From Desulfobacterales bacterium (GTDB taxonomy: Bacteria > Desulfobacterota > Desulfobacteria > Desulfobacterales > JAHEIW01): 64,000 bases of DNA. Positions within the stretch are counted from its first letter, which is position 1; every line of letters starts with the position of its first letter. Of this stretch, positions 9,042 to 41,564 are shown piece after piece. The notes under the pieces are model-generated. The model made no database searches, was not told where the DNA came from, and saw nothing but the letters and a program-made list of their open reading frames with translations. The stretch spans positions 6,004-70,003 of the forward strand of contig JASFNW010000002.1 of NCBI GenBank assembly GCA_050116835.1. Direction: 5' to 3'. The position numbers were made by a program, and so were the translations under genes.

Positions 9042-9440
9042 TTAAAATCGAAAACCCGATATCAAATGAAAGAACAGATAATACAGGCCGCCGGCGATGC
9101 CGATCAGACCGGCAATGAGGAATCCGATTCGACGGCGCCCGGCCCGCCGGTCTCTGATTTCCTGTTTTTCGTTGAGATACCCGATGGCCGAATCGACCAC
9201 CGTGGTGCGCAACGCTAAAACCGATGGTTTTCTACAGTGCGGACATAATTCGAGAAAGCAACCCAGGTTGCGGGTTTCGTAATGATAACGGCTAACATAC
9301 TGGTGGGGTGTGCTGATCGTCTCATCAATTTTTTTGCGAGGTTTGCCTTCCAGAAGAATTAAGGATCTTTCTTCAATATCAACCTCGGATTCGACATCTA
9401 TAACAGTTGCCGGCGCCTCTTTTATTTTTTTGGCCTCCAT
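9042..9440 (-). CDS. hypothetical tail-anchored membrane protein with CxxC pair
   Basis: I start it at MEAKKIKE (ATG 9440), which has GAGGTGA upstream. It has CFLELCPHC and a C-terminal TM (IGFLIAGLIGIAGGLYYLFF). Confidence 0.45.
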   Translation of the reverse strand: MEAKKIKEAPATVIDVESEVDIEERSLILLEGKPRKKIDETISTPHQYVSRYHYETRNLGCFLELCPHCRKPSVLALRTTVVDSAIGYLNEKQEIRDRRAGRRRIGFLIAGLIGIAGGLYYLFFHLISGFRF

Positions 9441-9792
9441 TTCACTCACCTCTGACGGAATTATAGTCGTGCATGCCTCTCCCTGATGAGAATTTTGCAG
9501 AAACCATGCCAATTCCTTCTTTAGTAAAATTTGCTGAAATTAAAGAAAGTTACGTTATACATCAATCTTTTTACTCAAAAGATTTTAAGAATTAAATTAA
9601 ACAAAAATGGGCAGGATATTACATATTTCTAAGGGGTTATGTAGATCACAACAAGAATAGTTGACGATTCAAGATGTTGTTCAAAAGGGCCGATAGTATA
9701 GATCAGCAACTGTGCAAATTGTTTTGCAAACCCGACCGGTGATGACAATTGCTTAACGGTTGCAATGATTCGGATGAATAAGGAGATGCGCA

Positions 9793-10932
9793 ATGGCTAT
9801 TCCCCAACATTTAGAAATCCTCAAGCAAGGTGTCGCAGCCTGGAATCAATGGCGCACGGACAATGCCGGCACTGAACCTGATCTGGCGGGTTCTGATTTA
9901 AACAAAGCAGATCTCAAAGGCGCCAATTTGGGCGAAACCGATCTCAGGTGGGCGAATCTGACCTGGGCCGATCTGAGGGGTGCCAACCTTAACCGTGCCG
10001 ACCTGCGGCGGGCGAACCTCAGTCGCGCGATTTTCAATATGGCCAACCTCAGCGAGGCCAACCTCAGCGAGACTTACCTCAGTGGGGCTGATTTAAGTGA
10101 AGCCGACCTGAAACGCGCTATTTTCATCCGAGCAGATTTATCCAGCGTGGATCTATCTAACGCTGATTGTCAGCGGGCGGATTTTAGATGGGCTTATTTA
10201 ATCAAAGCCGGATTTAACGGAGCCAATCTCAGTGGTGCCAATTTGATTGAGGCCAATCTAACAAAAGCCGAACTCAAACAGAGCAACCTTGAAGAAGCGT
10301 TCGTTGCCTGGAGCTGTTTTGGTGACAACGATTTGAGCGAAACCGTCGGGTTAAATGCCGTCAAGCATTTCGGTCCGTCTACCATTGGTGTCGATACTAT
10401 TTATCGCTCGAAGGGCAGCATCCCGGAAAAATTCTTAAGGGGCGCAGGTGTTCCGGAACACTTTATTTCCTACACCGGTTATTTGAACGAAAAAGCCTTT
10501 AGGCACAATAGCTGCTTTATCAGCTTTTCCGGAAATGATCGCAATTTTATTGAAAAAATTGGCGATGACTTACAGCGAGAAGGCGTCCGCTGCTGGTATG
10601 CACCTGAAGAACTGAAGATGGGGGATGCCATTCGACAACAGGTGGATCAGCTGATTCGGGTACAGGATAAACTGCTGGTGGTCTTATCAAAATTTTCCGT
10701 TGAAAGCCAATGGATTCAAAAAGAAGTAGCGGCCGCCATCGAAGAAGAGCGCCATCGCAATAAGACAGTTTTATTTCCATTGCGACTGGACAACGGTCGC
10801 ATGGATGCTGAAAAGGACTGGCTGAAAGACCTTCAAAAAACCCATCCCATTTATGATTTTACGGCCTGGCAGAGCTGGGAAGCCTATTTTGCACAATTTA
10901 GCCGATTGGTTGACGATATAAAAGCAGCCTGA
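9793..10932 (+). CDS. pentapeptide-repeat / TIR-domain fusion protein
   Basis: 379 aa with RBS AAGGAG. Residues about 31-180 are tandem pentapeptide repeats (ADLKGANLGETDLRWANLTWADLRGANLNRADLRRANL...). Residues about 238-379 look like a TIR domain (CFISFSGNDRNF...VRCWYAPEEL..GD...LLVVLSKFSVESQWIQKEV). Confidence 0.85.
   Translation: MAIPQHLEILKQGVAAWNQWRTDNAGTEPDLAGSDLNKADLKGANLGETDLRWANLTWADLRGANLNRADLRRANLSRAIFNMANLSEANLSETYLSGADLSEADLKRAIFIRADLSSVDLSNADCQRADFRWAYLIKAGFNGANLSGANLIEANLTKAELKQSNLEEAFVAWSCFGDNDLSETVGLNAVKHFGPSTIGVDTIYRSKGSIPEKFLRGAGVPEHFISYTGYLNEKAFRHNSCFISFSGNDRNFIEKIGDDLQREGVRCWYAPEELKMGDAIRQQVDQLIRVQDKLLVVLSKFSVESQWIQKEVAAAIEEERHRNKTVLFPLRLDNGRMDAEKDWLKDLQKTHPIYDFTAWQSWEAYFAQFSRLVDDIKAA
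9883..10332 (+). repeat. 15-nt periodic coding repeats (pentapeptide repeat region)
   Basis: About 30 consecutive A(D/N)LxX pentads appear in the translated product. This is periodicity at the protein level, not a CRISPR array. Confidence 0.8.
10504..10929 (+). other. TIR-like domain of the 9793..10932 product
   Basis: Beta-strand/helix pattern FISFSG, CWYAPEEL, LLVVLS. The candidate catalytic Glu sits in the SQWIQKE motif (Glu311, nt 10723-10725). Confidence 0.7.
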
Positions 10933-11298: not shown

Positions 11299-13323
11299 AT
11301 GGACAGCACAGAAAAAGAAACAGCAGAACTCGGCCAATCTGAACCATCGGACGCCGAAAGCGCTGATTCAGACCAAAGTTTACAAAACAAAAAAGTTAAA
11401 TTATCTTATAATTTTACGAAAAATACTGAAAGTGATCATTTAGATATTGAAGATGCGGATGCAGAACCGATTGCCCCAGACGACAACACATTGGAAACTG
11501 CGAAAACCGACCAACCCGATTCAGCCGAAACGCGTCAGACAGATGAAAAAGGCGATCCCGTAGACCACCCCCCGGACGACCCGGACCCGCAACCGAATCG
11601 CCACCACGGTGGGGAAAAATTAGCTAAAAGCAGTCCGAATGAACCTCGAGAAGGGAAGGGCGATGATGCTTCTTCGGATGCGGATGAAATTCCGCCTGGT
11701 AAAGAGGCACAAGACCTGGATCGCCCTGAACCGGACGACGGCGATCCAGAGACAAATGAACAGCCATCGCAATCATCGAATGGCATGGCAAATGATGAAC
11801 GTGCCGCAGGTGATTCGGTTGATGAGATTGAAATTAAAAACCACGGCCAACCAGCAGAACCTGCTGTTGAGCATGCGGAATTAGCAACTGATGATGCAGA
11901 TATCATGAGCACTGAAATGGATCTCGCTGCTCAATCCGAATTGTCTGACGAAAAAGTGGATGAATCTGATCAGCAACAGAGCGTCTCGGAAGAAGCGTCG
12001 ACCCCGCCAGCAAATACAGAAACAGCATCAGAAGCGGATGATGATGCAACCGATGTTTCACCCGTCGACAATCTATCGATGGAAGATCAGGCGGATTCGA
12101 TCCCCGAGACTGCAGAACCAACACTAAATGCTGCAGCTCCCAGATCACCAATCGCAAAGATAGTGGTGTCTGCAGTTTTGATCACCGCTCTTTTTTCTGG
12201 TTTTTTTATCTTTGGAAACAAGTCAAAGATAAAGCAGGACGAACCCGCGGCTGAGGCACCATCAGAGGATCAGGCACAACCGCTTAAATTTGAAAGAAGA
12301 GAAATAGTGGACATTCCCACCGCGGTGACCGCCGGTATTTATGACGACCTCATTAATGAAGTCAGTGCTCTCAGAGACTCCCTATTGAAAAAACAGGCAG
12401 AAGTGCTTGCGCTCAAAAACCGTTACCAGCAGAGCATTGAAGAACTGGAAAAAGAAATTTTAGACGAGCAACGCAAAGCCCATGTCCAGACATTTCAGCA
12501 GGCCATCAACCGTCATCGTATCGATTTCAGTCTGAAGACCATCCAGCGTCGACAGGCCTATATCAGACAGTTAGAAAAGCCACTTGAGTGGGTTTCGGGA
12601 GCCTGTGAAGAATTGCTGTACTTAAAAAGACGGGTGATGACCGATCTTCAGGTGTCTGCCATTGCCAGCGGAATTGACATGGACAGACATGTTCAGCAGA
12701 TGCATCGGTCCCTTAAAGAATACCGACCCACAGCAGACAAACTGGCCATTGATCCGACAAATGCCCATCTGGAATCGCTTGAAACCATATGGCAGCAGAT
12801 CCAGTCAAAGCAGAATGTAGAATCAGTTGAACGCGTTTTTTCCAAAAACCGAATGATATCGGCGCAAATTTGTGCTGGAGATTTTAGTCGTATCAACGAG
12901 CTATCTGAAATGACGGCTGAAACGGCAAAGTGCATTACCGGGATGCGGGCTTCAGATCTTTTTCTGAATCAGATTACCGAGATGACTCCAGCAGCTGCCA
13001 GACAACTGTGTCAATGGAAGGGCAGCTGGATATGTATGAATGGCATCAGAGCACTTTCGCCCCGGGCGGCGCACTATCTATTTCAGTGGGACGGCCGATG
13101 GATTTCTTTAAATGGACTGACAGAATTTCCGGCTGAAATCGGAGAAGCCCTTTTACGATGGCCAGGTCGGCAACTGGAACTTATGGGTTTGCTCGATACG
13201 ACCGATTCCCAAGCGCGGATCGGGATTGAATACCTGGCGGAGTGGGAACGATCGGGTGGGAAATTATTTGTCCCGAGAGACCTCCGCAAAAAAATAGACG
13301 CCTTGCACCAGCAGTCGGGTTAG
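11299..13323 (+). CDS. large acidic single-pass membrane protein with coiled-coil and C-terminal ~24-aa Trp-containing repeats (hypothetical)
   Basis: 674 aa. Residues 1-280 are a D/E/P/S-rich low-complexity region. A TM segment lies at about aa 286-305 (IAKIVVSAVLITALFSGFFIFG). The region after that is heptad-rich. The C-terminal repeats are LFLNQITEMTPAAARQLCQWKGSW / ICMNGIRALSPRAAHYLFQWDGRW / ISLNGLTEFPAEIGEALLRWPGRQ. Confidence 0.6.
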   Translation: MDSTEKETAELGQSEPSDAESADSDQSLQNKKVKLSYNFTKNTESDHLDIEDADAEPIAPDDNTLETAKTDQPDSAETRQTDEKGDPVDHPPDDPDPQPNRHHGGEKLAKSSPNEPREGKGDDASSDADEIPPGKEAQDLDRPEPDDGDPETNEQPSQSSNGMANDERAAGDSVDEIEIKNHGQPAEPAVEHAELATDDADIMSTEMDLAAQSELSDEKVDESDQQQSVSEEASTPPANTETASEADDDATDVSPVDNLSMEDQADSIPETAEPTLNAAAPRSPIAKIVVSAVLITALFSGFFIFGNKSKIKQDEPAAEAPSEDQAQPLKFERREIVDIPTAVTAGIYDDLINEVSALRDSLLKKQAEVLALKNRYQQSIEELEKEILDEQRKAHVQTFQQAINRHRIDFSLKTIQRRQAYIRQLEKPLEWVSGACEELLYLKRRVMTDLQVSAIASGIDMDRHVQQMHRSLKEYRPTADKLAIDPTNAHLESLETIWQQIQSKQNVESVERVFSKNRMISAQICAGDFSRINELSEMTAETAKCITGMRASDLFLNQITEMTPAAARQLCQWKGSWICMNGIRALSPRAAHYLFQWDGRWISLNGLTEFPAEIGEALLRWPGRQLELMGLLDTTDSQARIGIEYLAEWERSGGKLFVPRDLRKKIDALHQQSG

Positions 13324-13350: not shown

Positions 13351-13926
13351 ATGAAATTGCTAGTAATTGGAAAATATAGTTTGCTGATTGTCATTCTGTC
13401 AATCGCATGTTCGTCGATGGCCGCCGGCGGAGCCAAAGCGCATACCCTCGAAGGAAGAATAAACGATATAGCCTTGTTACGAGCGAAGATCATCGATAAA
13501 ATCGATCAGGCCGTTGAAATCAGACGTTATCTGGAGCAGCGGTCGGATAAACTGCAAGCGGAAATCCGCTCCGAGCAGATGCGCGCTGACATACATTCTT
13601 ATCAGGCGGCTCTGCAAAATTTGCGCATTCGTAATAACCTCCGTTTAATACAAACCCTCCAGGCGTATATAAAACTAATCAACGAGCGTATTGATTACTA
13701 TCAAACCGGCAATGGGCGCTTAAGGTTTTTGATCGATCAGATCCATGATGATTTGGCCATTATCGGCATTTTAAAGGACATGCAGACCCAAGACCTTATC
13801 GATCGTATCGACCTTGTTTTCAATGAATTCAATCCTGAATTGCAAAAACCGATCATCAACATAGCCCACATCCGCCTGCTTCCCACAGAATATGTGTGGG
13901 AAAATATTTGCCTCGAGGACAATTAA
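13351..13926 (+). CDS. secreted coiled-coil protein, paralogous to the central domain of the upstream 674-aa protein
   Basis: 191 aa, AGGAG RBS, signal peptide. It aligns without gaps to aa 352-455 of the 11299..13323 product, sharing LR, EI, EQ, RI, IQ..QAYI and DL. Confidence 0.55.
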   Translation: MKLLVIGKYSLLIVILSIACSSMAAGGAKAHTLEGRINDIALLRAKIIDKIDQAVEIRRYLEQRSDKLQAEIRSEQMRADIHSYQAALQNLRIRNNLRLIQTLQAYIKLINERIDYYQTGNGRLRFLIDQIHDDLAIIGILKDMQTQDLIDRIDLVFNEFNPELQKPIINIAHIRLLPTEYVWENICLEDN

Positions 13927-20753: not shown

Positions 20754-21317
20754 ATGCTCGAAAGCGGTGATTTGAGAAAGGGGCTAAAACTCGAATTGGA
20801 CGGAGAGCCCTATGTGGTTGTCCAGTTTGAATTCGTCAAGCCCGGTAAGGGACAGGCCCTGTACAAATGCAAGTTAAAAAACATGCTCACCGGCGTCCAA
20901 TTTGATAAAACTTTTCGATCCAGTGAAAAATTTAATTCTGCCGATCTGGAAGAGGTCGAAATGGAATACCTATACGCGGATGGGGATCGATTCTGTTTTA
21001 TGAACACGACCAACTACGAACAGGAATTTGTTACTGCAGAACAAATCGGTGACGCCAGAAATTTTCTAAAAGAGAACACCATCTGTAATGTTCTATTGTT
21101 CCAGAACCGTCCGATTGAAGTCACGCTGCCGTTTTTTATCGATTTGAAAGTCGATAAAACAGATCCCTGGGTAAAAGGCGACACCGCCTCGGGTGACTCC
21201 AAACCGGCAACCCTGGAGACCGGTCATGTCTTGAATGTGCCGCCGTTCATACAGGAAGGTGAATTGATTCGCATCGATACCCGCACCGGCCAATATGTCG
21301 AGCGTGTAAAAGACTAA
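20754..21317 (+). CDS. efp: elongation factor P
   Basis: 187 aa, GAAGGAGG RBS. LRKGLKLELDGEPYVVVQFEFVKPGKGQA is the EF-P signature, including the KPGKG loop. Confidence 0.95.
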   Translation: MLESGDLRKGLKLELDGEPYVVVQFEFVKPGKGQALYKCKLKNMLTGVQFDKTFRSSEKFNSADLEEVEMEYLYADGDRFCFMNTTNYEQEFVTAEQIGDARNFLKENTICNVLLFQNRPIEVTLPFFIDLKVDKTDPWVKGDTASGDSKPATLETGHVLNVPPFIQEGELIRIDTRTGQYVERVKD

Positions 21318-21364: not shown

Positions 21365-24286
21365 ATGGCTTTAGAATCCAACATAAGCAAATTTTCGCAA
21401 TCGCTGTTGAATTCCAAAAAACTGGGTTCTCAGACAGTATATCACCAGACCCTGCCGGCTACAGCGGCCCAGTGGGCTGAACCGATCCGTCCGTGGCCGC
21501 CTGCGATCGAAACCATGATGGAAGCTGCCGGCATCAAACGATTATACCGGCATCAGGCACGAGCCATTGATCTTATCCGTGACGGCCGGCATGTGATGGT
21601 TGCCACTCCAACGGCCAGCGGTAAAACCCTGATTTACAACCTTCCGGTGTTGGAACGTTTTGCAGCAGATCCGGAAGCTACCGCTCTGTATATATTTCCC
21701 CTAAAGGCGCTGGCGCAAGATCAGTTGCAGACATTTGAAATGCTGGCCACCCACCTGGAATTTGCCAGGCCGTCGGCAGCTATTTATGATGGTGACACTT
21801 CCGCCTATCACCGCAAAAAAATCCGTCAGGCACCGCCGAATTTGATTATTACCACACCGGAGATGCTGCATCTGTCATTGATGGCCTTTCATCAAAAATG
21901 GGCTGCTTTTTGGTCGCGACTGCGAGTGGTGGTGGTCGATGAAGTCCATACCTATCGCGGTGTGATGGGCTCCCATCTGTCCCAGATTTTCAGAAGATTC
22001 CATCGCATTTCCCGACACTATGGCAGCACACCGACTTTTGTCTTCAGCTCGGCGACGCTAGCCAATCCGGCGCAGCTGATCAATCAACTCGCCGGCCTGA
22101 ACGTTGAGGTGGTGGATACCAGCAGTGCACCCCGGGGACGTCGGCATTTACTATTTCTTAATCCAACCCTTGGTCCGGCCCGCACGGCCATCCGGTTGCT
22201 TAAAATGGCCCTGGAACAGAATCTGAGGACCATCGTTTATACCCAATCCCGAAAACTGACCGAACTGATTGCTATGTGGGCCGGCGCTGAATCCGGCCAC
22301 TTTGCCGATCGGATCAGTGCTTATCGCGCCGGACTTCTTCCACAGGAACGACGGGAAATTGAAGCACGGTTGGCAAACGGCGATCTGCTGGCCGTCATTT
22401 CAACCAGTGCACTGGAGCTGGGAATCGATATCGGGGATCTGGATCTTTGTCTGCTGGTGGGCTATCCGGGATCAATCATTTCGACCTGGCAGCGGGGTGG
22501 GCGAGTGGGTCGAGGCGGTCAGGATTCAGCGTTGATCCTGATTGCCGGAGAAGATGCGCTCGATCAGTATTTTATGCGACATCCGCAGGATTTTGTCGAG
22601 CGCCCGCCGGAACCGGCTGTCGTCAATCCATATAATGCCCGGATCATGAAGCCGCATTTGATCTGTGCAGCGACAGAATTGCCCCTGGACATCGAAGAAC
22701 GCATGATCGCCGATGCGCCTGCAGCTGAAATCATAGCCAAACTTGAGCAGGACGGCCAGCTGCTGCGAAGTGCAGATGGGCGTACGATTTACGCGGGGCA
22801 CAGAGCGCCTCACCGAAAGATCAATTTGCGGGGAGCCGGAAATCCCTTTCAGATCATTGCGGCCGGGACCAACAGCCCCATCGGCGAAATTGACGAATAC
22901 CGGGCCTTCCGGGAAACCCACCCCGGAGCAGTATATCTTCACAAAGGGGATACCTTTGTGGTGAAAAGCCTGGATATCCCCCAGCGAAAGATTACCGTTT
23001 TCCAGGATCAGGTTGCGTATTATACGCGTGTGAGGAGCCATAAATTAACGGAGATCTTAAAGATTGAAGCATCAAAATATATATTAAACACAAATTTTTA
23101 TTATGGAAAAATTAAAGTAACAGATCAGGTAACTGATTATGAACGCCGGTGCATCCGAACCCATCGACGATTAAGCCAATACGCATTGAACCTGCCACCT
23201 CAACAGTTTGAAACCGAAGGATTCTGGTTTAGCATACCCGCTGCAATTCAGCATGCATGCGATGCAAAGGGTGTGGACTTGATGGGGGCGCTCCACGCTA
23301 TTGAGCACGCGGCCATTGGCATCTTTCCGCTGATGGTCATGGTGGATCACAAGGACATCGGTGGGATGTCCACCCATTATCATCCCCAAACGGACGGCGC
23401 TGTTATCTTTATTTATGACGGGATCCCCGACGGTGCCGGTTTGACCCGTGCGGCATTTGCAGACGCGCAGCACCTGCTACACTACACGGTTAAGGTTATT
23501 AAGTCCTGTCCTTGTGAATCCGGCTGCCCTTCCTGCGTTCACTCACCCCAGTGCGGCTCCGGTAACCGGCCGATGGATAAAGATGGAGCTGTTTTTATAT
23601 TGGAGCGTCTGGAGACCCGCGAAGCCACCAAAGGCCGTGTTCAAGCAACATTTGGCCGGCCGTCTTCAAAGGGGCAGACATCCCGCACGCCAGCAGACTT
23701 ACCGCCACGCAGACAAAATCAGTCTTCTCGTGATCTATTTTATGGGGTATTCGATCTGGAAACGCAGCGATCTGCCGCAGAAGTCGGCGGTTGGCAACAT
23801 GCCGACAGGATGGGCATCAGCTGCGGCGTGGTTTATGACGCGCGCAAAAAAACATTCCGCTCATATTTGGAAAATCAGACGGCAGACCTGATTTCTTCTC
23901 TTCGCCGTTTTGACCTGGTTGTCGGTTTTAATATCAAACGATTCGATTATCATGTTCTGAAGGGCTATTCATCGTTTGATTTTACGGTGCTGAACACTAT
24001 TGATATCCTCGAAGAAATTCACAACCACTTAGGATTCAGGCTTTCATTGGCCCATCTGGTTGAGCAGACGCTGAATACCAGTAAAACAGCAGATGGGCTC
24101 CAGGCTTTAAGGTGGTGGAAAAAGGGACGCATTAATGACATTATCGAATACTGTAAAATGGATGTTAAACTGACTCGTGACCTTTTCGAATTCGGCCGCC
24201 GGAAGGGCTACCTGATTTTCCGCAATCGCCGTCAGAAGAGGATCAGGATACCGGTCAACTGGCAAACAGAACGGTTCTTCAAATAG
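21365..24286 (+). CDS. YprA/MrfA-type DEAD/DEAH helicase with DUF1998 (4-Cys) domain fused to a C-terminal DEDD-type 3'-5' exonuclease domain
   Basis: 973 aa. Walker A is TPTASGKT, motif II is DEVH, and helicase-C is GRVGRGG. The DUF1998 region is HAIEHA...CPCESGCPSCVHSPQCGSGN. A Ser/Arg/Pro linker follows. The exonuclease motifs are FDLET, GFNIKRFD and YCKMD. Confidence 0.88.
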   Translation: MALESNISKFSQSLLNSKKLGSQTVYHQTLPATAAQWAEPIRPWPPAIETMMEAAGIKRLYRHQARAIDLIRDGRHVMVATPTASGKTLIYNLPVLERFAADPEATALYIFPLKALAQDQLQTFEMLATHLEFARPSAAIYDGDTSAYHRKKIRQAPPNLIITTPEMLHLSLMAFHQKWAAFWSRLRVVVVDEVHTYRGVMGSHLSQIFRRFHRISRHYGSTPTFVFSSATLANPAQLINQLAGLNVEVVDTSSAPRGRRHLLFLNPTLGPARTAIRLLKMALEQNLRTIVYTQSRKLTELIAMWAGAESGHFADRISAYRAGLLPQERREIEARLANGDLLAVISTSALELGIDIGDLDLCLLVGYPGSIISTWQRGGRVGRGGQDSALILIAGEDALDQYFMRHPQDFVERPPEPAVVNPYNARIMKPHLICAATELPLDIEERMIADAPAAEIIAKLEQDGQLLRSADGRTIYAGHRAPHRKINLRGAGNPFQIIAAGTNSPIGEIDEYRAFRETHPGAVYLHKGDTFVVKSLDIPQRKITVFQDQVAYYTRVRSHKLTEILKIEASKYILNTNFYYGKIKVTDQVTDYERRCIRTHRRLSQYALNLPPQQFETEGFWFSIPAAIQHACDAKGVDLMGALHAIEHAAIGIFPLMVMVDHKDIGGMSTHYHPQTDGAVIFIYDGIPDGAGLTRAAFADAQHLLHYTVKVIKSCPCESGCPSCVHSPQCGSGNRPMDKDGAVFILERLETREATKGRVQATFGRPSSKGQTSRTPADLPPRRQNQSSRDLFYGVFDLETQRSAAEVGGWQHADRMGISCGVVYDARKKTFRSYLENQTADLISSLRRFDLVVGFNIKRFDYHVLKGYSSFDFTVLNTIDILEEIHNHLGFRLSLAHLVEQTLNTSKTADGLQALRWWKKGRINDIIEYCKMDVKLTRDLFEFGRRKGYLIFRNRRQKRIRIPVNWQTERFFK
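23732..24283 (+). other. DEDD/RNase-H-fold exonuclease domain (YprB/MrfB-like) at the C-terminus of the helicase
   Basis: Residues 790-973. ExoI is F-D-L-E-T, ExoII is N-x-x-x-F-D and ExoIII is Y-x3-D (YCKMD). Confidence 0.7.
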
Positions 24287-36147: not shown

Positions 36148-39100
36148 ATGCCCGGCCTGAACATCTTTACCAGCAACAAACTTGAAATTCTGGCAACACA
36201 ACTGGCGCAACAGCTGAAAAAACCGGTGTCCAAAACGCTGAAACCCGAAATTATTGTCATCCAGAGTTCCGGCATGGAACGCTGGATATCTCAGGAACTT
36301 GCGCGCTTTAACGGTATCTGTGCCAACATCCATTTTCCGTTCCCCAATACCTTTTTGGACCACATCGCACAACAGGTCATGCCCGATGAAGAACAGCCCT
36401 CGGCCTTTGAACCCGATGTTTTGATGTTTAGAATCATGAGTGCGCTTCCGGAATGCACGATCAGGCCAGGTTTTGAGCGCCTGAAAGCCTACCTGACCGA
36501 TGATGCCAGCCGTCTCAGGGAATTGCAGATATCAAGCAAACTGGCTGATCTTTACGACCAGTACCAGGTGTTTCGACCGGAAATGATCATTCGCTGGGAG
36601 CAGGGTGAAAATCCCGAGCACGCCAACGACCACTGGCAGGCTGAGCTTTGGCGGCAGTTGCAAGAGGGTCGGCAAAATCAGCACCGTGCCAGCCAGCAGC
36701 GAAATTTGATACAACGCATCCAAGCTCATCCGGAGTCCTTTCCGGATTTGCCGCACCGCTTTTTTATGTTTGGCATTTCTTACCTGCCGCGATTTCATCT
36801 GGAGACGTTTGCAGCGCTGTCAGAGGTTGTTGAAACCAACCTGTATTTGCTGAATCCGTGTCAAGAGTACTGGGGCGACATTGTTTCCCAAAAACAAATG
36901 CAGCGCATCCAACGCACATATGCGCATTCGGCTGAAGTCGCAACGGAACTGCACCTGGAAGAGGGCAACCGTCTGCTGGCATCCATGGGGTCTCACGGTA
37001 GAGATTTTCATACCGTGATCAGCGGTTTTGATTTTCAGATTCACGAAAACTATCAGGATCCAGGATGCACAACCCTGCTGAGCTGTATTCAATCGGATAT
37101 TCTTAATTTAAGAGATCGCCGGCCGATACCGGCCAGTACCAACAATCAAGACGATTCTATGACCGCAACGACCTACGCACCGGTATTGGCAATCAAGCCA
37201 TCAGACACGTCCATTCAGATCCACTGCTGCCACAGTCCGATGCGTGAAACGGAAGTATTGCATGATAACCTGCTGTCAATGTTTGAAGCGGATTCACAAC
37301 TGCGACCAAAGGACATTGTGGTCATGACGCCCGACATTGATGCTTACGCCCCCTACATTCAGGCCGTTTTTGATACGGTGATCGATAAACGTCTGCAAAT
37401 TCCGTTTAGTATTGCAGACCGCGGGGCTCGGGAACAGGGTCGTCTGGTCGACGGCTTTTCATTGTTTCTGGAGCTCAAGGACGCCCGGTTCAGCGTATCT
37501 CGCGTTCTGCGATTACTGGAAGCGCCGGGTGTTCGAGAAAAATTTGGACTCAACCGCAGGGACATCGAAATTGTCGAACGTTGGATACGCGATACGCGAA
37601 TCCGCTGGGGAATCGATGCCGACCATCGCCGCAAGCTGGGTCTTCCGGCGGTTTCCGAAAACACTTGGCATGCGGGCATCCGGCAGCTGCTGCTGGGATA
37701 TGCGATGCCTGAAAATCAGCTGCGAATGTTCGACGATATTTTGCCCTATGATGCCGTTGAGGGGGCCGACATTCATAGCTTGGGTAAATTTTTAAATTTC
37801 TGCGATGCAGTATTTCAATATGCCCGGGAACTGATTGGGGCCAAAAGCTTGCGAACCTGGAGCATTTTTTTTAAGCGTTTGCTCGACGAATTCTTTCAGC
37901 CGGGGGAAGAAACCGAACGCGAAATAAAACGTTTGCGATCCATCCTGGATAACCTGGGCCAGCGCCAGACGGATGCAGACTTCGATGACAAACTCGAATT
38001 CGAGCCCATTCGGTTTTATCTGGAGCGCCAGCTGGATAAATTGCAATTTTCATCCGGCTTCATGACGGGAGGGGTAACTTTTTGTGCCATGCTTCCGATG
38101 CGCAGCATTCCTTTTAAGGTTGTCTGTCTGATGGGCATGAATTCAGATGCATTCCCGCGTGATTTTCAGCCGCTATCGTTTGATCAAATCGTACAACACC
38201 CGCGGCCCAGTGACCGCTCTCGTCGAAATGACGACAAGTACCTGTTTTTGGAATCCATTATTTCAGCCCGGAATACGCTTTATATCAGTTTTGTGGGGCA
38301 AAGCATCCAGGACAACAGTCGTATGCCCCCGTCGCCTCTCGTCAGCGAACTGCTGGACACAATTGAAAAGGGATTTGAACTGCCCGGACAAAACATTCGA
38401 GAACATGTGCTGCGTTTTCATCGTCTGCAGGCCTTTTCCCCTGAATACTTTACCCGCGAGAGTCCACTTTTCAGCTATTCCTCGGAAAACTGCGATGCGG
38501 CTGCATTTATCAACAATAACAAAACCGCCTCGCCGCTGATCACGAACACTATTCCCCTGACAGCGGCTGAAAAAACCGAATGGCACAATCTGGATATTGA
38601 TTCTCTTTGCCGCTTTTTTAGCCATCCCACGCGGTTCTTGCTCGAGCAGCGCCTGGGCATTTATCTGGAACAGACCGCTGTTTTAACTGAAAAACGTGAA
38701 GATTTTGAATTAGATCCTTTAGATCAATTCCACGTTGGCCAGAATCTTTTAAAAACCCGCATGTCCGGTCACGATCTGGACGCTTGCCGAGCGGCCCAGA
38801 TGGCCAGGGGGTATTTTCCGCATGGAAATGTCGGTACCTTACTGTATAACAACATGAGCAGCGCAGTGGAGCAGTTTGCCAACAGAGTAGAAACCTTGCA
38901 AGAAAAATACATTGCAGGACCATCAGAAAAGCACATCGATATTGATGAATTTAGCCTGCTGGTCAGAATGCCGAAAATTTATGAGCACGGACTGGTTCAA
39001 TACCGCTACGCAAATCAACGCGCCCAGGATTTGTTGGGCCTTTGGATTTACCATCTAGCTCTCTGTGACAATGTCCAGACCAATTTGCCCCGAACCAGTA

Positions 39101-39459
39101 TAATGCTGTTCAAGAATTCGGTTTGGAAATTTGATCTTGTTGATCACCCGCGAACTATTCTGGCGGAACTGCTCAGCGCGTTTAAGGCGGGACTGGAAAA
39201 ACCGCTGCATTTTTTCCCGGCCACGTCTTTTGTTTACGTTTTTCAGCAGCAAATCAACAATAGATCCGAAAAAGCGGCGATGGCCGCGGCCCGACGCAAT
39301 TGGATGGGAAATGATTACTCCAGAGGCGAATCGGACGATCCCTATATTGATATCTGTTTTAAAAGTGCCGACCTGCTGGACAGCCATTTTGCAGATGTTT
39401 CCCATGCCGTGTTCGGGCCTTTGCTGGCAAATGGCGGTCCGGTGGAAAATGTTCCCTAA
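36148..39459 (+). CDS. recC: exodeoxyribonuclease V gamma subunit
   Basis: 1103 aa. N-terminus FTSNKLEILATQLAQQL and overall length are typical of RecC. It lies upstream of recB/recD on the same strand. Confidence 0.85.
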   Translation: MPGLNIFTSNKLEILATQLAQQLKKPVSKTLKPEIIVIQSSGMERWISQELARFNGICANIHFPFPNTFLDHIAQQVMPDEEQPSAFEPDVLMFRIMSALPECTIRPGFERLKAYLTDDASRLRELQISSKLADLYDQYQVFRPEMIIRWEQGENPEHANDHWQAELWRQLQEGRQNQHRASQQRNLIQRIQAHPESFPDLPHRFFMFGISYLPRFHLETFAALSEVVETNLYLLNPCQEYWGDIVSQKQMQRIQRTYAHSAEVATELHLEEGNRLLASMGSHGRDFHTVISGFDFQIHENYQDPGCTTLLSCIQSDILNLRDRRPIPASTNNQDDSMTATTYAPVLAIKPSDTSIQIHCCHSPMRETEVLHDNLLSMFEADSQLRPKDIVVMTPDIDAYAPYIQAVFDTVIDKRLQIPFSIADRGAREQGRLVDGFSLFLELKDARFSVSRVLRLLEAPGVREKFGLNRRDIEIVERWIRDTRIRWGIDADHRRKLGLPAVSENTWHAGIRQLLLGYAMPENQLRMFDDILPYDAVEGADIHSLGKFLNFCDAVFQYARELIGAKSLRTWSIFFKRLLDEFFQPGEETEREIKRLRSILDNLGQRQTDADFDDKLEFEPIRFYLERQLDKLQFSSGFMTGGVTFCAMLPMRSIPFKVVCLMGMNSDAFPRDFQPLSFDQIVQHPRPSDRSRRNDDKYLFLESIISARNTLYISFVGQSIQDNSRMPPSPLVSELLDTIEKGFELPGQNIREHVLRFHRLQAFSPEYFTRESPLFSYSSENCDAAAFINNNKTASPLITNTIPLTAAEKTEWHNLDIDSLCRFFSHPTRFLLEQRLGIYLEQTAVLTEKREDFELDPLDQFHVGQNLLKTRMSGHDLDACRAAQMARGYFPHGNVGTLLYNNMSSAVEQFANRVETLQEKYIAGPSEKHIDIDEFSLLVRMPKIYEHGLVQYRYANQRAQDLLGLWIYHLALCDNVQTNLPRTSIMLFKNSVWKFDLVDHPRTILAELLSAFKAGLEKPLHFFPATSFVYVFQQQINNRSEKAAMAAARRNWMGNDYSRGESDDPYIDICFKSADLLDSHFADVSHAVFGPLLANGGPVENVP

Positions 39460-39487
39460 TGACACGTTTTACATCAAGGAGAAAGCT

Positions 39488-39871
39488 ATGGCCATGGTCG
39501 TTCAGCTGCACGAAGGTGTGGCGATTAAAAAATTTAAATTGGACAAATCCACGCTAAGCCTGGGACGCGACCCGCAAAGTGATATTTTTATCGATAACAC
39601 AGTTGTCAGCTCTAAGCATGCAATTATCACGGCCGAAGCGCATCCCGAATCCGGCGGAGAACTGCAGTACTTCATTGAAGACTTAAATAGCACCAACAGC
39701 ACCTATGTTAATGGTGAAAAAATCACGCGTCACAAGCTGGCACACGATGACGTGATCCGAATCGGCTGGAATCATTTTAAGTTTATCGATGCGGCGCAGG
39801 CAGATCCGGATCAAACTGCCAAAATCAAGAAGAGCTGGATACCGGGCGTATATTACACGGAAGACGAATGA
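39488..39871 (+). CDS. small FHA-domain protein
   Basis: I start it at ATG 39488, which has AAGGAGAAAG upstream. The listed ORF 39131..39871 overlaps the recC 3' end and I trimmed it. FHA motifs: LSLGRDPQSDIFIDNTVVSSKHAII, DLNSTNSTYVNGEKI, VIRIG. Confidence 0.8.
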   Translation: MAMVVQLHEGVAIKKFKLDKSTLSLGRDPQSDIFIDNTVVSSKHAIITAEAHPESGGELQYFIEDLNSTNSTYVNGEKITRHKLAHDDVIRIGWNHFKFIDAAQADPDQTAKIKKSWIPGVYYTEDE

Positions 39872-40090
39872 ATAGTGCATCAATTGAATTAGATCACGGT
39901 TTTTGTTGTCCATCCTGGCAATTGAGGCCGTTAAATTGGTTCGATTCGTTTAATTTGTTTGATTGGTTTTAATAGGACAAATGATTGAAACAAATCCAAC
40001 CAATTCAACCAATAAAACGGTCGATTTTCGACGACAGATAAAAATCATTCGAGAAAGTCGATTTTACTGCAAACGAAGTAACTGCCGCAT

Positions 40091-41266
40091 ATGGATATTT
40101 CTTTGCTCTTAAAAGCCATTTTTGATTCGCATATCAATCGATCCGCCTTGATTCAGAAGGTCATCAAACCGGGGGATGTCTTTGATATAAAAATCATCGA
40201 GGTCAAAGATGATCAGCGTGCCCTGGTTGATTTTGGCAAATTTCGTGCCCTTGCCAAAATCCAGTTTCCCGTTAAAGCCGGAGCTGATTTTGTTGCCAAA
40301 GTGACAGACACCGCCGGACAGCTTCACCTGCAGGTCATCGACCCGGACTCCAGAGCGGCCGGCGGGGACAAGGCCGTATCCCATCGGCTTGAAATTCTTT
40401 CTTTCGATTTATTCAACAAAATACAGACGGACATCAAACAGGCCATCCAGCACATTGTACAGTCCCCGGCAGGCACAGATGCGCCTCCGCCTTATGTCAG
40501 CCGAGCACTGGCAGCCCTGGATGCACATTTTGCATCGCTTGATCTAAATCAGGACCCGACAAAATGGCTACCGTTGGTTAAATCTTATGTAGAGAACACG
40601 GGCTTTTTCTTTGAAAAAAAAGTGGCAGACTTAATTCTTAAATTTGACCAACGCCCGGGTGCTGAAAGCATTCAGGAAATGATCCGCGATCCCCGGATCC
40701 GAAGTATTATGGACCGGGATTTAAAGCCGATTCTGTTGAGGCTCAAAGCATATCTGGATAAACCGGATCTAGATGTCAAACCCCCTGATGCCAAAACGCT
40801 TGCACAGTTCAAGGGAACACTCGACATGTTGCTGTCCGACATCCATAACCAGCAATCCCGCGCGATCAACAAAACTGAATCGGTCGATCCCTACCAGGTT
40901 TTTTCTTTCACGCTTCCGCTTGAAGAAAATGAGGAAAATGCGCGCCTGAAATTGTACTGTCCGAAAAAGAAGTCCGGGGGCTCCAAAGCAGGTTTTAAGA
41001 TTTCGCTGCTGCTGGCGTTGAGCCGTATCGGCGAGATGCGCGCGGATTTTTTCCTCCTCGATAAGGACCTGTCCATCACTTTTTTTGTTAAAGATGACGC
41101 CAGCAAAACTCTTTTCGAGCATCACCATAAAGAAATCCGTGAGTCCTTAAACCTTCTGTTCAACTACATAGTCTTAAAAACAGTAGTTTCCGATAAAAAA
41201 ATCGCGGAATTCCATCACGCAGACTTGGACATCGACAGTGATCGACAGGTCGATTTAAGGATTTAA
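40091..41266 (+). CDS. FliK-like (flagellar hook-length control C-terminal domain-like) protein, tentative
   Basis: 391 aa. The C-terminal third (FTLPLEENEENARLKLY...FKISLLLALSRIGEMRADFFLLDKDLSITFFV..ASKTLFEHHHKEIRESL) follows the Flg_hook pattern. Its stop is 2 nt before the FlhB-C-like gene. Confidence 0.4.
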   Translation: MDISLLLKAIFDSHINRSALIQKVIKPGDVFDIKIIEVKDDQRALVDFGKFRALAKIQFPVKAGADFVAKVTDTAGQLHLQVIDPDSRAAGGDKAVSHRLEILSFDLFNKIQTDIKQAIQHIVQSPAGTDAPPPYVSRALAALDAHFASLDLNQDPTKWLPLVKSYVENTGFFFEKKVADLILKFDQRPGAESIQEMIRDPRIRSIMDRDLKPILLRLKAYLDKPDLDVKPPDAKTLAQFKGTLDMLLSDIHNQQSRAINKTESVDPYQVFSFTLPLEENEENARLKLYCPKKKSGGSKAGFKISLLLALSRIGEMRADFFLLDKDLSITFFVKDDASKTLFEHHHKEIRESLNLLFNYIVLKTVVSDKKIAEFHHADLDIDSDRQVDLRI

Positions 41267-41268
41267 TA

Positions 41269-41529: not shown

Positions 41530-41564
41530 TCCTTAATTTGTTTTTTAACTAGAAGGTATGGTAA

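What the first reader, a model, noticed from the sequence alone, without database searches (positions are those of the whole stretch)
9793..10932. Pentapeptide-repeat / TIR-domain fusion protein: a candidate single-gene NADase-type immune sensor
The N-terminal 150 or so residues are an uninterrupted pentapeptide-repeat array (A[D/N]LxX). This fold forms a right-handed beta-helix and in MfpA/Qnr proteins mimics B-DNA. The C-terminal 140 or so residues have the strand/helix pattern of a TIR domain, including a Glu in the SQWIQKE context where catalytic TIR NADases carry their essential Glu. Bacterial TIR domains are established effectors or signal generators in Thoeris, CBASS, Pycsar, SPARTA and other defence systems. 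I do not know of a described system in which a pentapeptide-repeat DNA mimic is the sensor module. The gene stands alone behind an AT-rich 280-nt spacer. It heads a run of lineage-specific genes, which fits accessory or defence character.
Basis: partly seen in the sequence, partly recalled or inferred. Interest (0 to 1): 0.65.

Follow-up and report, generated by a model that had tools for sequence, protein, structure and literature searches.

The report
Pentapeptide-repeat rod fused to TIR NADase
This gene really does encode a pentapeptide-repeat rod joined to a TIR domain with an intact NAD-cleaving site, from a large unstudied family, but in this bacterial lineage it sits at a fixed chromosomal site and evolves as slowly as housekeeping genes.

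Summary
ORF 9793-10932 (+) encodes a 379-aa cytoplasmic protein with three parts: 31 uninterrupted pentapeptide repeats, a 57-aa helical linker that matches no Pfam family, and a TIR domain. In the TIR domain, E311, W307 and G277 align with AbTir E208, W204 and G174.

The protein belongs to a large uncharacterised family with a fixed PRP-linker-TIR architecture. About 2,060 clusters at 50% identity carry the linker. Members occur in Desulfobacterales, Acidobacteriota, Chloroflexota and Chlorobi.

The immune-sensor reading is only partly supported.
- In other phyla the family shows some conflict-system traits: tandem paralogue arrays in which the PRP often diverges more than the TIR, other TIR fusions nearby, and PRP-ion-channel genes.
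- In the window's lineage the gene is single-copy. It sits in a syntenic block with GuaA, EF-P and a LarB-like gene across genomes where its identity falls from about 90% to 46%.
- It has no defence neighbours. Its dN/dS of 0.05-0.09 matches GuaA and EF-P.
- It is not a Qnr/MfpA member. Its most conserved β-helix face carries an Arg/Trp ladder.

My best reading is a self-contained, ligand-gated NAD+-cleaving switch, probably guarding a conserved target. I class it as a new variant of a known kind, of moderate interest.

The parts
9793..10932 (+). Complete PRP-linker-TIR coding sequence (379 aa plus stop codon)
   Evidence: ORF list. Pfam Pentapeptide 1.1e-50 and TIR_2 8.1e-24. An identical protein, P0001, is annotated by NCBI as 'toll/interleukin-1 receptor domain-containing protein [Desulfobacterales bacterium]'.
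9793..9876 (+). N-terminal cap, residues 1-28, two helices. H6, G13, W17, N18, W20 and R21 are invariant.
   Evidence: AF2 helices at residues 4-11 and 14-23. Invariant columns from the alignment.
9877..10341 (+). 31 uninterrupted pentapeptide repeats (residues 29-183, about 7.75 coils of a right-handed four-sided β-helix). One face is preferentially conserved and carries an Arg/Trp ladder: R52 W53, R72 R73, S92 E93, I112 R113, R132 W133, I152 E153, A172 W173.
   Evidence: Register and per-face conservation: 0.86 for this face against 0.63-0.72 for the other three. Foldseek match to Np275/276, TM 0.87. The repeats are read directly from the sequence.
10342..10512 (+). Family-specific helical linker, residues 184-240. 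Motif H192-x-G-P-S-x-x-G-x-D201 ... R205-S-x-G208 ... G219. This is the most conserved stretch of the protein and matches no Pfam family.
   Evidence: Invariant columns. Short helices in the AF2 model. A phmmer search with residues 170-240 finds 2,060 clusters at 50% identity. Of the best 150, 90 have a TIR domain after the linker, 58 are truncated fragments and 2 have something else.
10513..10929 (+). TIR domain, residues 241-379, of the AbTir-like TIR_2 type
   Evidence: Pfam TIR_2 covers residues 242-367. phmmer against the PDB gives AbTir at 2.3e-9. Foldseek gives 7uxu at TM 0.72.
10723..10725 (+). Codon GAA for E311, the predicted catalytic glutamate
   Evidence: E311 aligns with AbTir E208. 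The E208A mutant of AbTir is inactive. E311 is invariant in 32 homologues.
10711..10713 (+). Codon TGG for W307, the αC tryptophan equivalent to AbTir W204. In characterised TIR domains this position goes with cyclic ADPR products.
   Evidence: Alignment. Role of W204. W307 is invariant.
9780..9785 (+). Shine-Dalgarno sequence AAGGAG, 7 nt upstream of the ATG
   Evidence: Read from the sequence. Conserved in orthologous loci.
9589..9660 (+). Conserved 72-nt AT-rich block in the divergent intergenic region. I infer that it is the gene's own promoter: -35 ATTACA at 9618-9623, an 18-nt spacer, -10 TAGATC at 9642-9647, and an A/T-rich upstream element.
   Evidence: Alignment of 10 orthologous upstream regions. 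No Rfam match and no conserved RNA structure. The promoter assignment is inference only.
9042..9512 (-). Divergently transcribed small protein with a Cys-rich motif (C-x4-C-P-H-C) and a C-terminal transmembrane helix. Its true start is probably M24, near position 9443. It is a conserved neighbour only in the clade with at least 70% identity. No functional link is shown.
   Evidence: 68% identical to the L004 neighbour. Present in 10 or more loci. Absent upstream of more distant homologues. No Pfam or PADLOC hit.
11299..13323 (+). Downstream 674-aa membrane protein: acidic disordered N-terminal region, one transmembrane helix, a long coiled coil, and C-terminal 24-residue LRR-like repeats. It belongs to a lineage-restricted family and is a frequent but dispensable neighbour.
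   Evidence: No Pfam hit. The family has 413 members. It lies directly downstream of PRP-TIR in every context I checked except L095. It is absent from L007 and L009, which keep PRP-TIR. AF2 model and weak LRR matches. dN/dS 0.31-0.34.
13351..13926 (+). 191-aa coiled-coil protein with a lipoprotein-like N-terminus. It is gained or lost together with the 674-aa protein.
   Evidence: 47% identical to the L004 neighbour. Co-occurrence table. The lipobox-like sequence 'LSIAC' is read from the sequence (alignment); its meaning is inferred.

Best explanation
The gene encodes a soluble, self-contained, ligand-gated NAD+-cleaving switch.

A rigid pentapeptide-repeat β-helix of 31 repeats presents one conserved face that carries an Arg/Trp ladder. 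This face would bind a macromolecular partner. A family-specific helical linker joins the C-terminal end of the rod to an AbTir-like TIR domain. That domain keeps the catalytic Glu (E311), the αC Trp linked to cyclic-ADPR production (W307) and the BB-loop Gly (G277).

In AbTir and SARM1 the NADase site is built across two TIR domains in a head-to-tail assembly. I therefore infer that gain or loss of the partner on the rod changes the oligomeric state. The TIR domains would then assemble and cleave NAD+ to nicotinamide plus ADPR or a cADPR isomer, which depletes NAD+ and arrests growth.

All three modules evolve as slowly as GuaA and EF-P in this lineage. I therefore infer that the rod monitors a conserved component, either host-side or invariant, in the manner of a guard. 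It is unlikely to be chasing a fast-evolving phage protein.

Shown: the architecture, the fold, conservation of the catalytic residues, the breadth of the family, the synteny and the selection regime.

Inferred: enzymatic activity, gating by oligomerisation, the nature of the ligand and the biological role.
For: - Domains and fold.
- Catalytic-site mapping onto AbTir (E208, W204, G174). E311 and W307 are invariant and G277 is nearly invariant.
- The composite active site across two TIR domains is documented for AbTir and SARM1.
- Fixed three-part architecture in about 2,060 clusters at 50% identity.
- No neighbour is conserved across phyla, which points to a stand-alone protein.
- One β-helix face is preferentially conserved (0.86 against 0.63-0.72).
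- Strong purifying selection on every module (PRP 0.08, linker 0.07, TIR 0.10). The whole gene scores 0.05-0.09, equal to GuaA and EF-P.
- Conflict-type traits elsewhere in the family: tandem arrays; PRP 37-57% identical against TIR 60-93% in three arrays; adjacent X-TIR, TIR-TIR and PRP-ion-channel genes; integrases, PglZ, a methyl-directed restriction enzyme and a reverse transcriptase nearby.
- The TIR part matches PADLOC models PDC-S66, ThsB, SAVED-TIR and retron-TIR.
Against: - There is no experimental evidence of NADase activity or of any phenotype.
- In the window's lineage the gene behaves like a core gene. It has a fixed position in housekeeping synteny, normal GC content and no defence genes nearby. 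No full-length copy exists in PLSDB plasmids, INPHARED phages or IMG/VR. This is atypical for anti-phage genes.
- Defence-gene content near family members in other phyla is modest. Apart from TIR paralogues it is not clearly above a distal control from the same loci.
- The domain arrangement in the model is uncertain (pTM 0.65). I could not test oligomerisation or ligand binding.
- AbTir K202, which contacts the NAD+ diphosphate, corresponds to Ser here (S305). AbTir S176 and R178 are not conserved across the family.
Confidence: 0.45

Rival explanations
1. The protein is a non-immune, physiological NAD+ or cADPR-type signalling or NAD-homeostasis enzyme. The β-helix would bind a cellular partner, and the TIR domain would make a nucleotide signal or adjust NAD+ during stress. 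It would be a housekeeping-grade function of this Desulfobacterales lineage.
For: - dN/dS is equal to that of GuaA, EF-P and the Zn-peptidase.
- The gene is single-copy with a fixed position across genomes where GuaA falls from 92% to 77% identity.
- It has its own conserved promoter-like block.
- There are no mobile or defence genes in the window.
- W307 is invariant, which favours a cyclic signalling product.
Against: - No receptor-type domain (SLOG, Macro, SAVED) was found among the neighbours I scanned.
- The distribution across phyla is patchy: 250 of 185,579 GTDB species, with 40-50% identity between phyla. Tandem paralogue arrays occur. Both are unusual for a housekeeping enzyme.
- As far as I know, every characterised bacterial TIR NADase belongs to a conflict system or a virulence factor.
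Confidence: 0.2
2. The protein is the cytoplasmic arm of a multi-gene envelope-linked module. The other parts would be the downstream membrane protein with a coiled coil and LRR-like repeats, its lipoprotein-like partner, and the upstream Cys-rich tail-anchored protein. This would amount to a split, Toll-like-receptor-style arrangement in which an LRR-like envelope sensor signals to a TIR enzyme.
For: - The 674-aa family has only 413 members. It lies directly downstream of PRP-TIR on the same strand in about 20 loci.
- In L004 the outer flanks differ, but the four genes stay together.
- The C-terminal repeats model as an LRR-like solenoid.
Against: - L007 and L009 keep PRP-TIR but lack the 674-aa and 191-aa genes.
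- L095 keeps those two genes but has no PRP-TIR within 6.5 kb. An inserted element there makes this case inconclusive.
- The clade of L002, L003, L018 and L020, and every other phylum, lack them.
- The selection regimes are very different: 0.31-0.34 against 0.05-0.09.
- The LRR matches are weak (E 0.02-0.3).
- The intergenic gap in the window is 367 nt, and operon status was not shown either way.
Confidence: 0.1
3. The β-helix is a B-DNA mimic that acts as a decoy for phage DNA-binding proteins. Capturing such a protein switches on the TIR NADase, giving a single-gene abortive-infection sensor locked in an arms race.
For: - The pentapeptide fold superposes on MfpA, Qnr and AlbG.
- The PRP module has a net charge of -8.
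- The PRP diverges more than the TIR in three tandem arrays in other phyla.
- Phages commonly encode PRP-only proteins. One acts as an anti-defence factor.
Against: - Scores against the Qnr and MfpA family models are far below cut-off.
- The conserved face is rich in Arg and Trp, not acidic.
- The PRP shows no sign of diversifying selection in this lineage (dN/dS 0.08).
- The gene sits in housekeeping synteny.
Confidence: 0.1
4. The TIR domain is a non-catalytic scaffold or adaptor that serves only for oligomerisation or protein-protein contact. The pentapeptide rod would then be the functional part, for example as a topoisomerase regulator.
For: Many TIR domains work as scaffolds. AbTir K202, S176 and R178 are not all conserved here.
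Against: E311 and W307 are invariant and the BB-loop Gly is nearly invariant across 50-92% identity to the window protein. The closest solved relatives are active NADases. The protein is not a member of the Qnr or MfpA families.
Confidence: 0.07

Closest known systems
AbTir-type bacterial TIR NADases and cyclases (Pfam TIR_2; Acinetobacter baumannii AbTir, PDB 7uwg, 7uxu, 8g83)
   Same: - Closest solved relative by sequence (E=2.3e-9).
- Matched by fold (TM 0.72).
- The catalytic Glu, the αC Trp and the BB-loop 'K-x-G-D' all align.
   Different: AbTir has an N-terminal coiled coil, which mediates self-association. This protein has a pentapeptide β-helix plus a dedicated linker instead. AbTir K202 corresponds to Ser here. 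No activity has been measured for this protein.
Thoeris ThsB, and other TIR defence effectors or signal generators in PADLOC (PDC-S66, SAVED-TIR, retron-TIR, TIR-pAgo)
   Same: The TIR domain matches these models at E values from 1e-15 to 1e-6. The expected chemistry, NAD+ cleavage or cyclisation, is the same.
   Different: Only the TIR part matches, for example positions 150-239 of the 282-position PDC-S66 profile. There is no ThsA, SAVED, reverse transcriptase or Argonaute partner nearby. All NCBIfam scores are far below cut-off.
Pentapeptide-repeat proteins of the MfpA, Qnr and AlbG type (DNA-mimic topoisomerase regulators)
   Same: The right-handed four-sided β-helix fold and the A(D/N)LXX repeats.
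   Different: Family scores are far below cut-off (Qnr 44 against 240 bits, MfpA 32 against 360 bits). The rod's C-terminal end continues into the linker and TIR domain; I did not look for an MfpA/Qnr-type dimerisation helix. The conserved face carries Arg and Trp. By sequence, the closest pentapeptide relatives are cyanobacterial HetL, Np275/276 and Alr5209.
Hailong HalA (pentapeptide repeats plus a K+-channel domain; a DNA-gated ion-channel effector)
   Same: A pentapeptide-repeat module is fused directly to a cell-killing effector with no NTPase between them. The description comes from PMC13586616 and PMC13434031. Genes with a PRP plus Ion_trans_2 architecture lie next to PRP-TIR genes in two Acidobacteriota loci.
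   Different: The effector here is a TIR domain, not a channel. The protein has no transmembrane segment, and there is no HalB-like nucleotidyltransferase neighbour. The primary Hailong paper was not available, so the role of the repeats in HalA could not be checked. No PDB sequence match links the two.
STAND/NACHT, TRADD-N and vWA conflict systems that use pentapeptide repeats as a superstructure-forming sensor module
   Same: The same logic of a repeat sensor joined to a death-type effector. A rare family member carries an EAD7 domain.
   Different: There is no NTPase, caspase or adaptor module. The sensor and effector are joined only by a short conserved linker.

Membership tests
TIR-domain NAD+ hydrolases (catalytic TIR; AbTir, SARM1 and plant TIR type) | TIR (flavodoxin-like) fold | tested here: met
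   Pfam TIR_2 84.9 bits against a cut-off of 28, and TIR 35.4 bits against 21.3. The AF2 model matches AbTir 7uxu at TM 0.72.
TIR-domain NAD+ hydrolases (catalytic TIR; AbTir, SARM1 and plant TIR type) | Catalytic glutamate on helix αC | tested here: met
   E311 aligns with AbTir E208. The AbTir E208A mutant is inactive. E311 is invariant in 32 homologues.
TIR-domain NAD+ hydrolases (catalytic TIR; AbTir, SARM1 and plant TIR type) | Aromatic residue four positions before the Glu (AbTir W204), which goes with cyclic ADPR products | tested here: met
   W307 aligns with W204 and is invariant.
TIR-domain NAD+ hydrolases (catalytic TIR; AbTir, SARM1 and plant TIR type) | Intact BB loop (AbTir G174 and S176 are required) | tested here: inconclusive
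   G277 corresponds to G174 and is nearly invariant. The S176 position is Ala here and varies across the family. R178 corresponds to R281, which is conserved only in the close clade.
TIR-domain NAD+ hydrolases (catalytic TIR; AbTir, SARM1 and plant TIR type) | Measured NAD+ cleavage that depends on TIR self-association | not testable with these tools
   This needs biochemistry. No multimer prediction tool was available.
Pentapeptide repeat proteins (Pfam PF00805) | Tandem A(D/N)LXX repeats that form a right-handed four-sided β-helix | tested here: met
   Pfam 169 bits against a cut-off of 20.2. 31 uninterrupted repeats. Np275/276 matched at TM 0.87, rmsd 2.0 Å.
Qnr and MfpA DNA-mimic topoisomerase-protection proteins | Score above the NCBIfam equivalog cut-off | tested here: not met
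   penta_rpt_Qnr 44.1 bits against 240. MfpA 32.1 bits against 360.
Qnr and MfpA DNA-mimic topoisomerase-protection proteins | A strongly anionic, DNA-like surface | tested here: inconclusive
   The PRP module has a net charge of only -8, and its conserved face carries Arg and Trp. I had no access to model coordinates, so surface electrostatics were not computed.
Thoeris (ThsB plus ThsA) | A TIR protein encoded next to a ThsA effector (SIR2-SLOG or Macro-TM) | tested here: not met
   None of the ten neighbours between 5817 and 19450 has a SIR2, SLOG or Macro domain. They have no PADLOC Thoeris hits. The ThsB models match only part of the protein.
PADLOC candidate system PDC-S66 | Full-length match to the PDC-S66 profile | tested here: not met
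   Only profile positions 150-239 of 282 match, which is the TIR core (E=9.3e-15).
Hailong (HalA plus HalB) | A transmembrane ion-channel effector paired with a HalB nucleotidyltransferase | tested here: not met
   The protein has no ion-channel domain by Pfam and no long hydrophobic stretch in the translated sequence. No nucleotidyltransferase was found among the neighbours.
Defence-island or mobile accessory gene (an operational criterion) | Variable genomic context, enriched in defence or mobile genes | tested here: not met
   For the window's clade, synteny is conserved with the LarB-like gene, GuaA and EF-P, there are no defence hits and no tRNA gene. For the family in other phyla the result is inconclusive. 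TIR paralogues, integrases, PglZ and a restriction enzyme lie nearby, but a distal control from the same loci also contains restriction-modification, defence-associated reverse transcriptase, Cas1 and MADS genes.

The most novel reading that the evidence does not exclude
The pentapeptide rod is not a DNA mimic but a binding platform for nucleic acid or host protein. Its Arg/Trp ladder would hold a constitutive cellular ligand, such as single-stranded nucleic acid or a conserved host protein. The TIR domain would fire when an invader removes or alters that ligand. This would be a Hailong-like 'guard released by loss of ligand' logic built on a TIR NADase. In this lineage it may additionally be wired to an LRR-like envelope protein encoded downstream, which would give a split Toll-like-receptor arrangement in a bacterium.
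Probability: 0.1. Interest if true: 0.8.

Novelty: new variant of a known kind. Interest (0 to 1): 0.45.

Why it matters
Every bacterial TIR enzyme studied so far is gated by a partner or a fused module, such as a coiled coil, SAVED, STING, APAZ/Argonaute or a reverse transcriptase.

A pentapeptide β-helix joined through a dedicated, highly conserved linker would be a different gating principle. It defines a family of roughly two thousand 50%-identity clusters that nobody appears to have characterised.

The unusual point is the selection regime. In this Desulfobacterales lineage a predicted NAD+-destroying enzyme is kept at one chromosomal site and evolves as slowly as GMP synthase and EF-P.

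- If it is immune, it is a long-term, fixed 'guard' rather than a mobile, fast-turnover defence gene.
- If it is not immune, it would be a rare case of physiological TIR/NAD+ signalling in bacteria.

Either outcome can be tested directly with one protein and two point mutants.

Tried and rejected
1. Effector swapping on the PRP-linker module. I searched with the linker alone against 1.84 billion representatives. The linker is almost always followed by TIR (90 cases against 2), so I rejected a modular sensor with interchangeable effectors.
2. Obligate partner genes. Neighbour clustering over 75 loci found none conserved outside Desulfobacterales. The upstream small protein is confined to the clade with at least 70% identity.
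3. The downstream 674-aa and 191-aa genes as an obligate operon. They are dispensable in L007 and L009. The reverse case, L095, is blurred by an inserted element.
4. Mobility. No full-length homologue exists in PLSDB plasmids, INPHARED phages or IMG/VR. Only PRP-only hits were found.
5. Second copies. The window has no other PRP or TIR gene.
6. A structured RNA or riboswitch in the upstream spacer. There is no Rfam hit and no consensus structure. The conserved block is not a σ54 promoter, because the -12 GC is missing on inspection.
7. A terminator between the TIR gene and the next gene. The scan found no + strand terminator there, and the two sites it found in the region are no more than the shuffles give.
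8. A presence/absence survey through the LarB-like neighbour in JGI metagenomes. That protein is too widely conserved, and only three informative loci came back.
9. The AFDB Foldseek library was unavailable, and the primary Hailong paper was not held.
10. Literature searches found no paper that describes a PRP-TIR fusion.
Full report
**1. What is there**

The ORF at 9793..10932 (+) encodes 379 aa. An AAGGAG ribosome-binding site lies 7 nt upstream of the ATG.

Pfam finds Pentapeptide (E=1.1e-50, six stretches), TIR_2 (E=8.1e-24, residues 242-367) and TIR (E=1.2e-8). Reading the repeat register shows 31 consecutive pentapeptides from P29 to E183 with no interruption. That is about 7.75 coils.

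An AlphaFold2 model built on 32 homologues has mean pLDDT 89.1. It shows:
- two N-terminal cap helices;
- a β-helix with one β-bridge every five residues;
- a short helical region, residues about 186-240;
- an α/β domain, residues 241-379.

Foldseek against the PDB matches the rod to Np275/276 (TM 0.87, rmsd 2.0 Å), HetL, MfpA, Qnr and AlbG. It matches the C-terminal domain to the AbTir TIR domain, 7uxu (TM 0.72).

**2. The active site**

phmmer against PDB sequences gives AbTir as the closest solved relative (E=2.3e-9). In that alignment:
- W307 and E311 of the motif 'SQWIQKEV' fall on AbTir W204 and E208;
- the BB-loop 'LKMGDAIRQQVD' falls on AbTir 'LKVGDSLRQKID', so G277 corresponds to G174.

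According to the AbTir study, E208A is inactive, W204 is needed for cyclisation to 2'cADPR, and G174 and S176 are required. That study also shows that the active site is formed across two TIR domains in a filament.

E311 and W307 are invariant, and G277 is nearly invariant, in an alignment of 32 homologues spanning 50-92% identity to the window protein. Not every AbTir contact is kept. K202 corresponds to S305, and the S176 position is Ala here and variable across the family. The catalytic core is present. Activity itself is inferred.

**3. The family**

More than 100 full-length homologues of 379-408 aa, all with the same architecture, were found. They range from 92% to 48% identity. Those that carry a source name are from Desulfobacterales or deltaproteobacterial metagenome-assembled genomes.

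A scan of one genome per GTDB species found 250 species with a relative. These include Desulfobacterales (90-46% identity). At 39-50% identity they also include Chloroflexota/Anaerolineales, Chlorobi, Acidobacteriota/Terriglobales, Latescibacterota and others.

The most conserved part of the protein is the linker, not either Pfam domain. Its motif is H192-x-GPS-x-x-G-x-D ... RS-x-G ... G219. It matches no Pfam family. A search with the linker alone against 1.84 billion representatives gave 2,060 clusters at E≤1e-3 and 576 at E≤1e-10. Of the best 150:
- 90 have a TIR domain after the linker;
- 58 are truncated fragments;
- 2 have something else.

This is a large family with a fixed three-part architecture. 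It is not a sensor with interchangeable effectors. Automated pipelines name its members 'TIR domain-containing protein' or 'YjbI with pentapeptide repeats'. I found no paper that describes it.

**4. Context in the window's lineage**

The window is core chromosome. It carries:
- aconitase, a Zn-peptidase, a LarB-like AIR-carboxylase-domain protein and GMP synthase;
- EF-P (Pfam-annotated in the syntenic locus L001; window orthologue at 20754-21317);
- a MrfA-like helicase, RecBCD, UvrB, UvrC and cytochromes.

It has no tRNA gene, and GC content shows no anomaly across the gene.

The block PRP-TIR / 674-aa protein / 191-aa / 134-aa / LarB-like / 282-aa / GuaA / 263-aa / EF-P recurs in more than 20 loci. 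Across them PRP-TIR identity falls from 90% to 46%, GuaA from 92% to 77% and EF-P from 94% to 74%.

Nei-Gojobori dN/dS among ten close orthologues is 0.14 for the cap, 0.08 for the PRP, 0.07 for the linker and 0.10 for the TIR. Against neighbours in the same genome pairs:

| Gene | dN/dS |
|---|---|
| PRP-TIR | 0.05-0.09 |
| GuaA | 0.06-0.08 |
| EF-P | 0.05-0.07 |
| Zn-peptidase | 0.04-0.06 |
| 674-aa protein | 0.31-0.34 |
| 191-aa protein | 0.16-0.17 |
| 134-aa protein | 0.17-0.25 |

No scanned neighbour hits a PADLOC defence model, apart from weak coiled-coil matches to SMC-type models (LmuB, JetC) in the 282-aa protein. No full-length copy occurs in plasmid, phage or viral-contig collections. 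The window has no second PRP or TIR gene.

For this orthologous clade the defence reading largely fails that test. The exceptions are L004 and the group of L002, L003, L018 and L020, whose flanks differ.

**5. Context elsewhere**

Outside Desulfobacterales no neighbour is conserved. However, seven loci carry tandem arrays of two or three PRP-TIR paralogues.
- In three arrays (L030, L033, L054) the PRP modules are 37-57% identical and differ in coil number, while the TIR modules are 60-93% identical.
- In two arrays (L060, L073) the TIR module is the more divergent one.
- In the remaining two (L039, L053) the difference between modules is small or absent.

Adjacent genes include TIR-TIR proteins, unknown-domain-TIR fusions and two PRP plus Ion_trans_2 proteins.

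Among 148 genes within three positions of a family member there are 6 TIR_2 proteins, 3 phage integrases, a PglZ, a methyl-directed restriction enzyme and a reverse transcriptase. A control set of 148 genes six or more positions away in the same loci has no TIR. It does contain a type I restriction-modification specificity subunit, defence-associated reverse transcriptase-type hits, Cas1 and MADS hits.

The near-neighbour signal is therefore specific to TIR paralogues. General defence enrichment is not demonstrated.

**6. The rod surface**

I assigned the 31 repeats to the four faces of the β-helix. One face has mean outward-residue conservation of 0.86, against 0.63-0.72 for the other three. 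It carries the ladder R52 W53, R72 R73, S92 E93, I112 R113, R132 W133, I152 E153, A172 W173.

Homologues with one extra coil add another 'FRWA' repeat in register. The PRP module has a net charge of -8. Scores against the Qnr and MfpA family models are far below cut-off.

A conserved Arg/Trp stripe fits a binding surface for a partner, which could be protein or nucleic acid. It could also be an intramolecular or oligomer interface. It gives no support to the B-DNA-mimic idea. I could not inspect model coordinates, so which of these applies remains open.

**7. Conserved neighbours**

*The 674-aa protein (11299-13323).* It has an acidic, poorly conserved N-terminal half and one transmembrane helix. 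It also has long coiled-coil helices and five or six 24-residue β/α repeats, which give weak LRR matches to the Nogo receptor and variable lymphocyte receptors (E 0.02-0.3). Its family has only 413 members. It lies directly downstream of PRP-TIR in almost every context I examined, including L004, where the outer flanks differ.

Three observations argue against an obligate link:
- L007 and L009 keep PRP-TIR without it.
- L095 keeps it without PRP-TIR within 6.5 kb. There, an AT-rich unknown gene and a fragment resembling a tRNA 3' end suggest an inserted element.
- More distant clades lack it.

I treat the link as lineage synteny with a possible, unproven functional connection.

*The divergent upstream gene (9042-9512, -).* It encodes a small Cys-rich protein with a C-terminal transmembrane helix. 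It is confined to the clade with at least 70% identity.

*The conserved upstream block.* A 72-nt AT-rich block at 9589-9660 is conserved in ten orthologous spacers. It has no Rfam match and no conserved structure. I read it as the gene's own σ70-type promoter. This is inference.

**8. Mechanism**

I commit to a stand-alone, ligand-gated NAD+-cleaving switch. The rod binds a partner on its conserved face. The linker transmits the change. The TIR domains assemble into composite active sites, as in AbTir and SARM1, and cleave NAD+, possibly to a cyclic ADPR isomer given the invariant W307.

All modules are under housekeeping-grade constraint. The monitored partner is therefore more likely a conserved host or invariant component (guard logic) than a variable phage protein.

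| Claim | My probability |
|---|---|
| The TIR domain is an active, regulated NADase | about 0.7 |
| The role is conflict or abortive infection | about 0.45 |
| Non-immune physiological signalling | about 0.2 |
| Multi-gene envelope module | about 0.1 |
| Non-catalytic scaffold | about 0.07 |

**9. Comparison and novelty**

The protein works like the known bacterial TIR NADases. It meets the testable membership features of catalytic TIR domains and of pentapeptide-repeat proteins. It fails the membership tests for Qnr/MfpA, Thoeris, PDC-S66 and Hailong.

Pentapeptide repeats are already recognised as sensor-type repeats in NACHT/STAND, TRADD-N and vWA conflict systems. A pentapeptide-repeat K+ channel is reported as the Hailong effector. 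A pentapeptide module in an immune protein is therefore not new in itself.

What is new is the direct PRP-linker-TIR design, the size of the uncharacterised family, and its core-gene-like behaviour in this lineage. I rate it a new variant of a known kind, with interest 0.45.

Noticed in passing
window 9589-9660: A 72-nt AT-rich block in the divergent spacer is nearly invariant across ten orthologous loci at 70-92% protein identity. That makes it more conserved than the rest of the spacer. It has no Rfam hit and no conserved RNA structure. It looks like a promoter with an upstream A/T-rich element (ATTACA, 18 nt, TAGATC).
   Followed up: partly
window 11299-13323: A 674-aa membrane protein with a highly acidic, disordered and length-variable N-terminal half. 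It also has one transmembrane helix, a long coiled coil and C-terminal 24-residue LRR-like repeats with invariant Trp, Gly and Cys positions. It matches no Pfam family. Its family has only 413 members, and it evolves fast (dN/dS about 0.3).
   Followed up: partly
window 13351-13926: A 191-aa coiled-coil protein whose N-terminus looks like a lipoprotein signal (…LSIAC…). It is always gained or lost together with the 674-aa gene.
   Followed up: no
window 9042-9512 (-): A small protein with a C-x4-C-P-H-C motif and a C-terminal transmembrane helix. Homologues are 131-132 aa and begin at 'MEAKKI'. The listed TTG start is therefore probably wrong, and the real start is M24, near position 9443.
   Followed up: partly
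L095 14200-16400: In one syntenic genome, the place upstream of the 674-aa orthologue holds two things. One is a fragment that resembles a tRNA 3' end (…GGTTCGATTCCGG…CACCA), which ARAGORN does not call as a tRNA. The other is an AT-rich 380-aa gene with no Pfam hit. This looks like a mobile-element insertion. No PRP-TIR was found within the locus.
   Followed up: partly
L088 4697-5837: Here the PRP-TIR orthologue is called as two ORFs of 96 aa and 279 aa. This is either a frameshifted pseudogene or an assembly error.
   Followed up: no
L042 8682-9698 (-) and L064 8551-9756 (-): In two Acidobacteriota genomes, genes encoding pentapeptide repeats fused to an Ion_trans_2 K+-channel domain lie divergently next to a PRP-TIR gene. 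That architecture is reported for Hailong HalA. The same sensor type therefore sits beside two different killing effectors.
   Followed up: partly
L033 3350-9373; L054 8314-12540; L039 3598-12243: These are TIR-rich arrays. They hold two or three PRP-TIR paralogues interleaved with TIR-TIR proteins, unknown-domain-TIR proteins and a fusion of TIR with a CAP12/Pycsar-type TIR.
   Followed up: partly
window 21365-24286 and 36148-54686: The window is rich in DNA-repair genes. It holds a 973-aa MrfA-like DEAD helicase with an MZB zinc domain and a C-terminal 3'-5' exonuclease domain, and also RecC, RecB-like and RecD genes, UvrB and UvrC.
   Followed up: no
INPHARED phage collection: PRP-only proteins similar to this rod (35-53% identity over 130-230 residues) are encoded by 443 phage records, including phages of Mycobacterium, Rheinheimera, Staphylococcus and Caulobacter. 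One phage pentapeptide protein has been reported as an anti-defence factor against the Sucellos system.
   Followed up: no
window 9846-10061 (-): A 71-aa antisense ORF inside the repeat region gives a weak hit to the pentapeptide profile (E=4e-4). It is a mirror artefact of the repetitive coding sequence and not a gene.
   Followed up: yes
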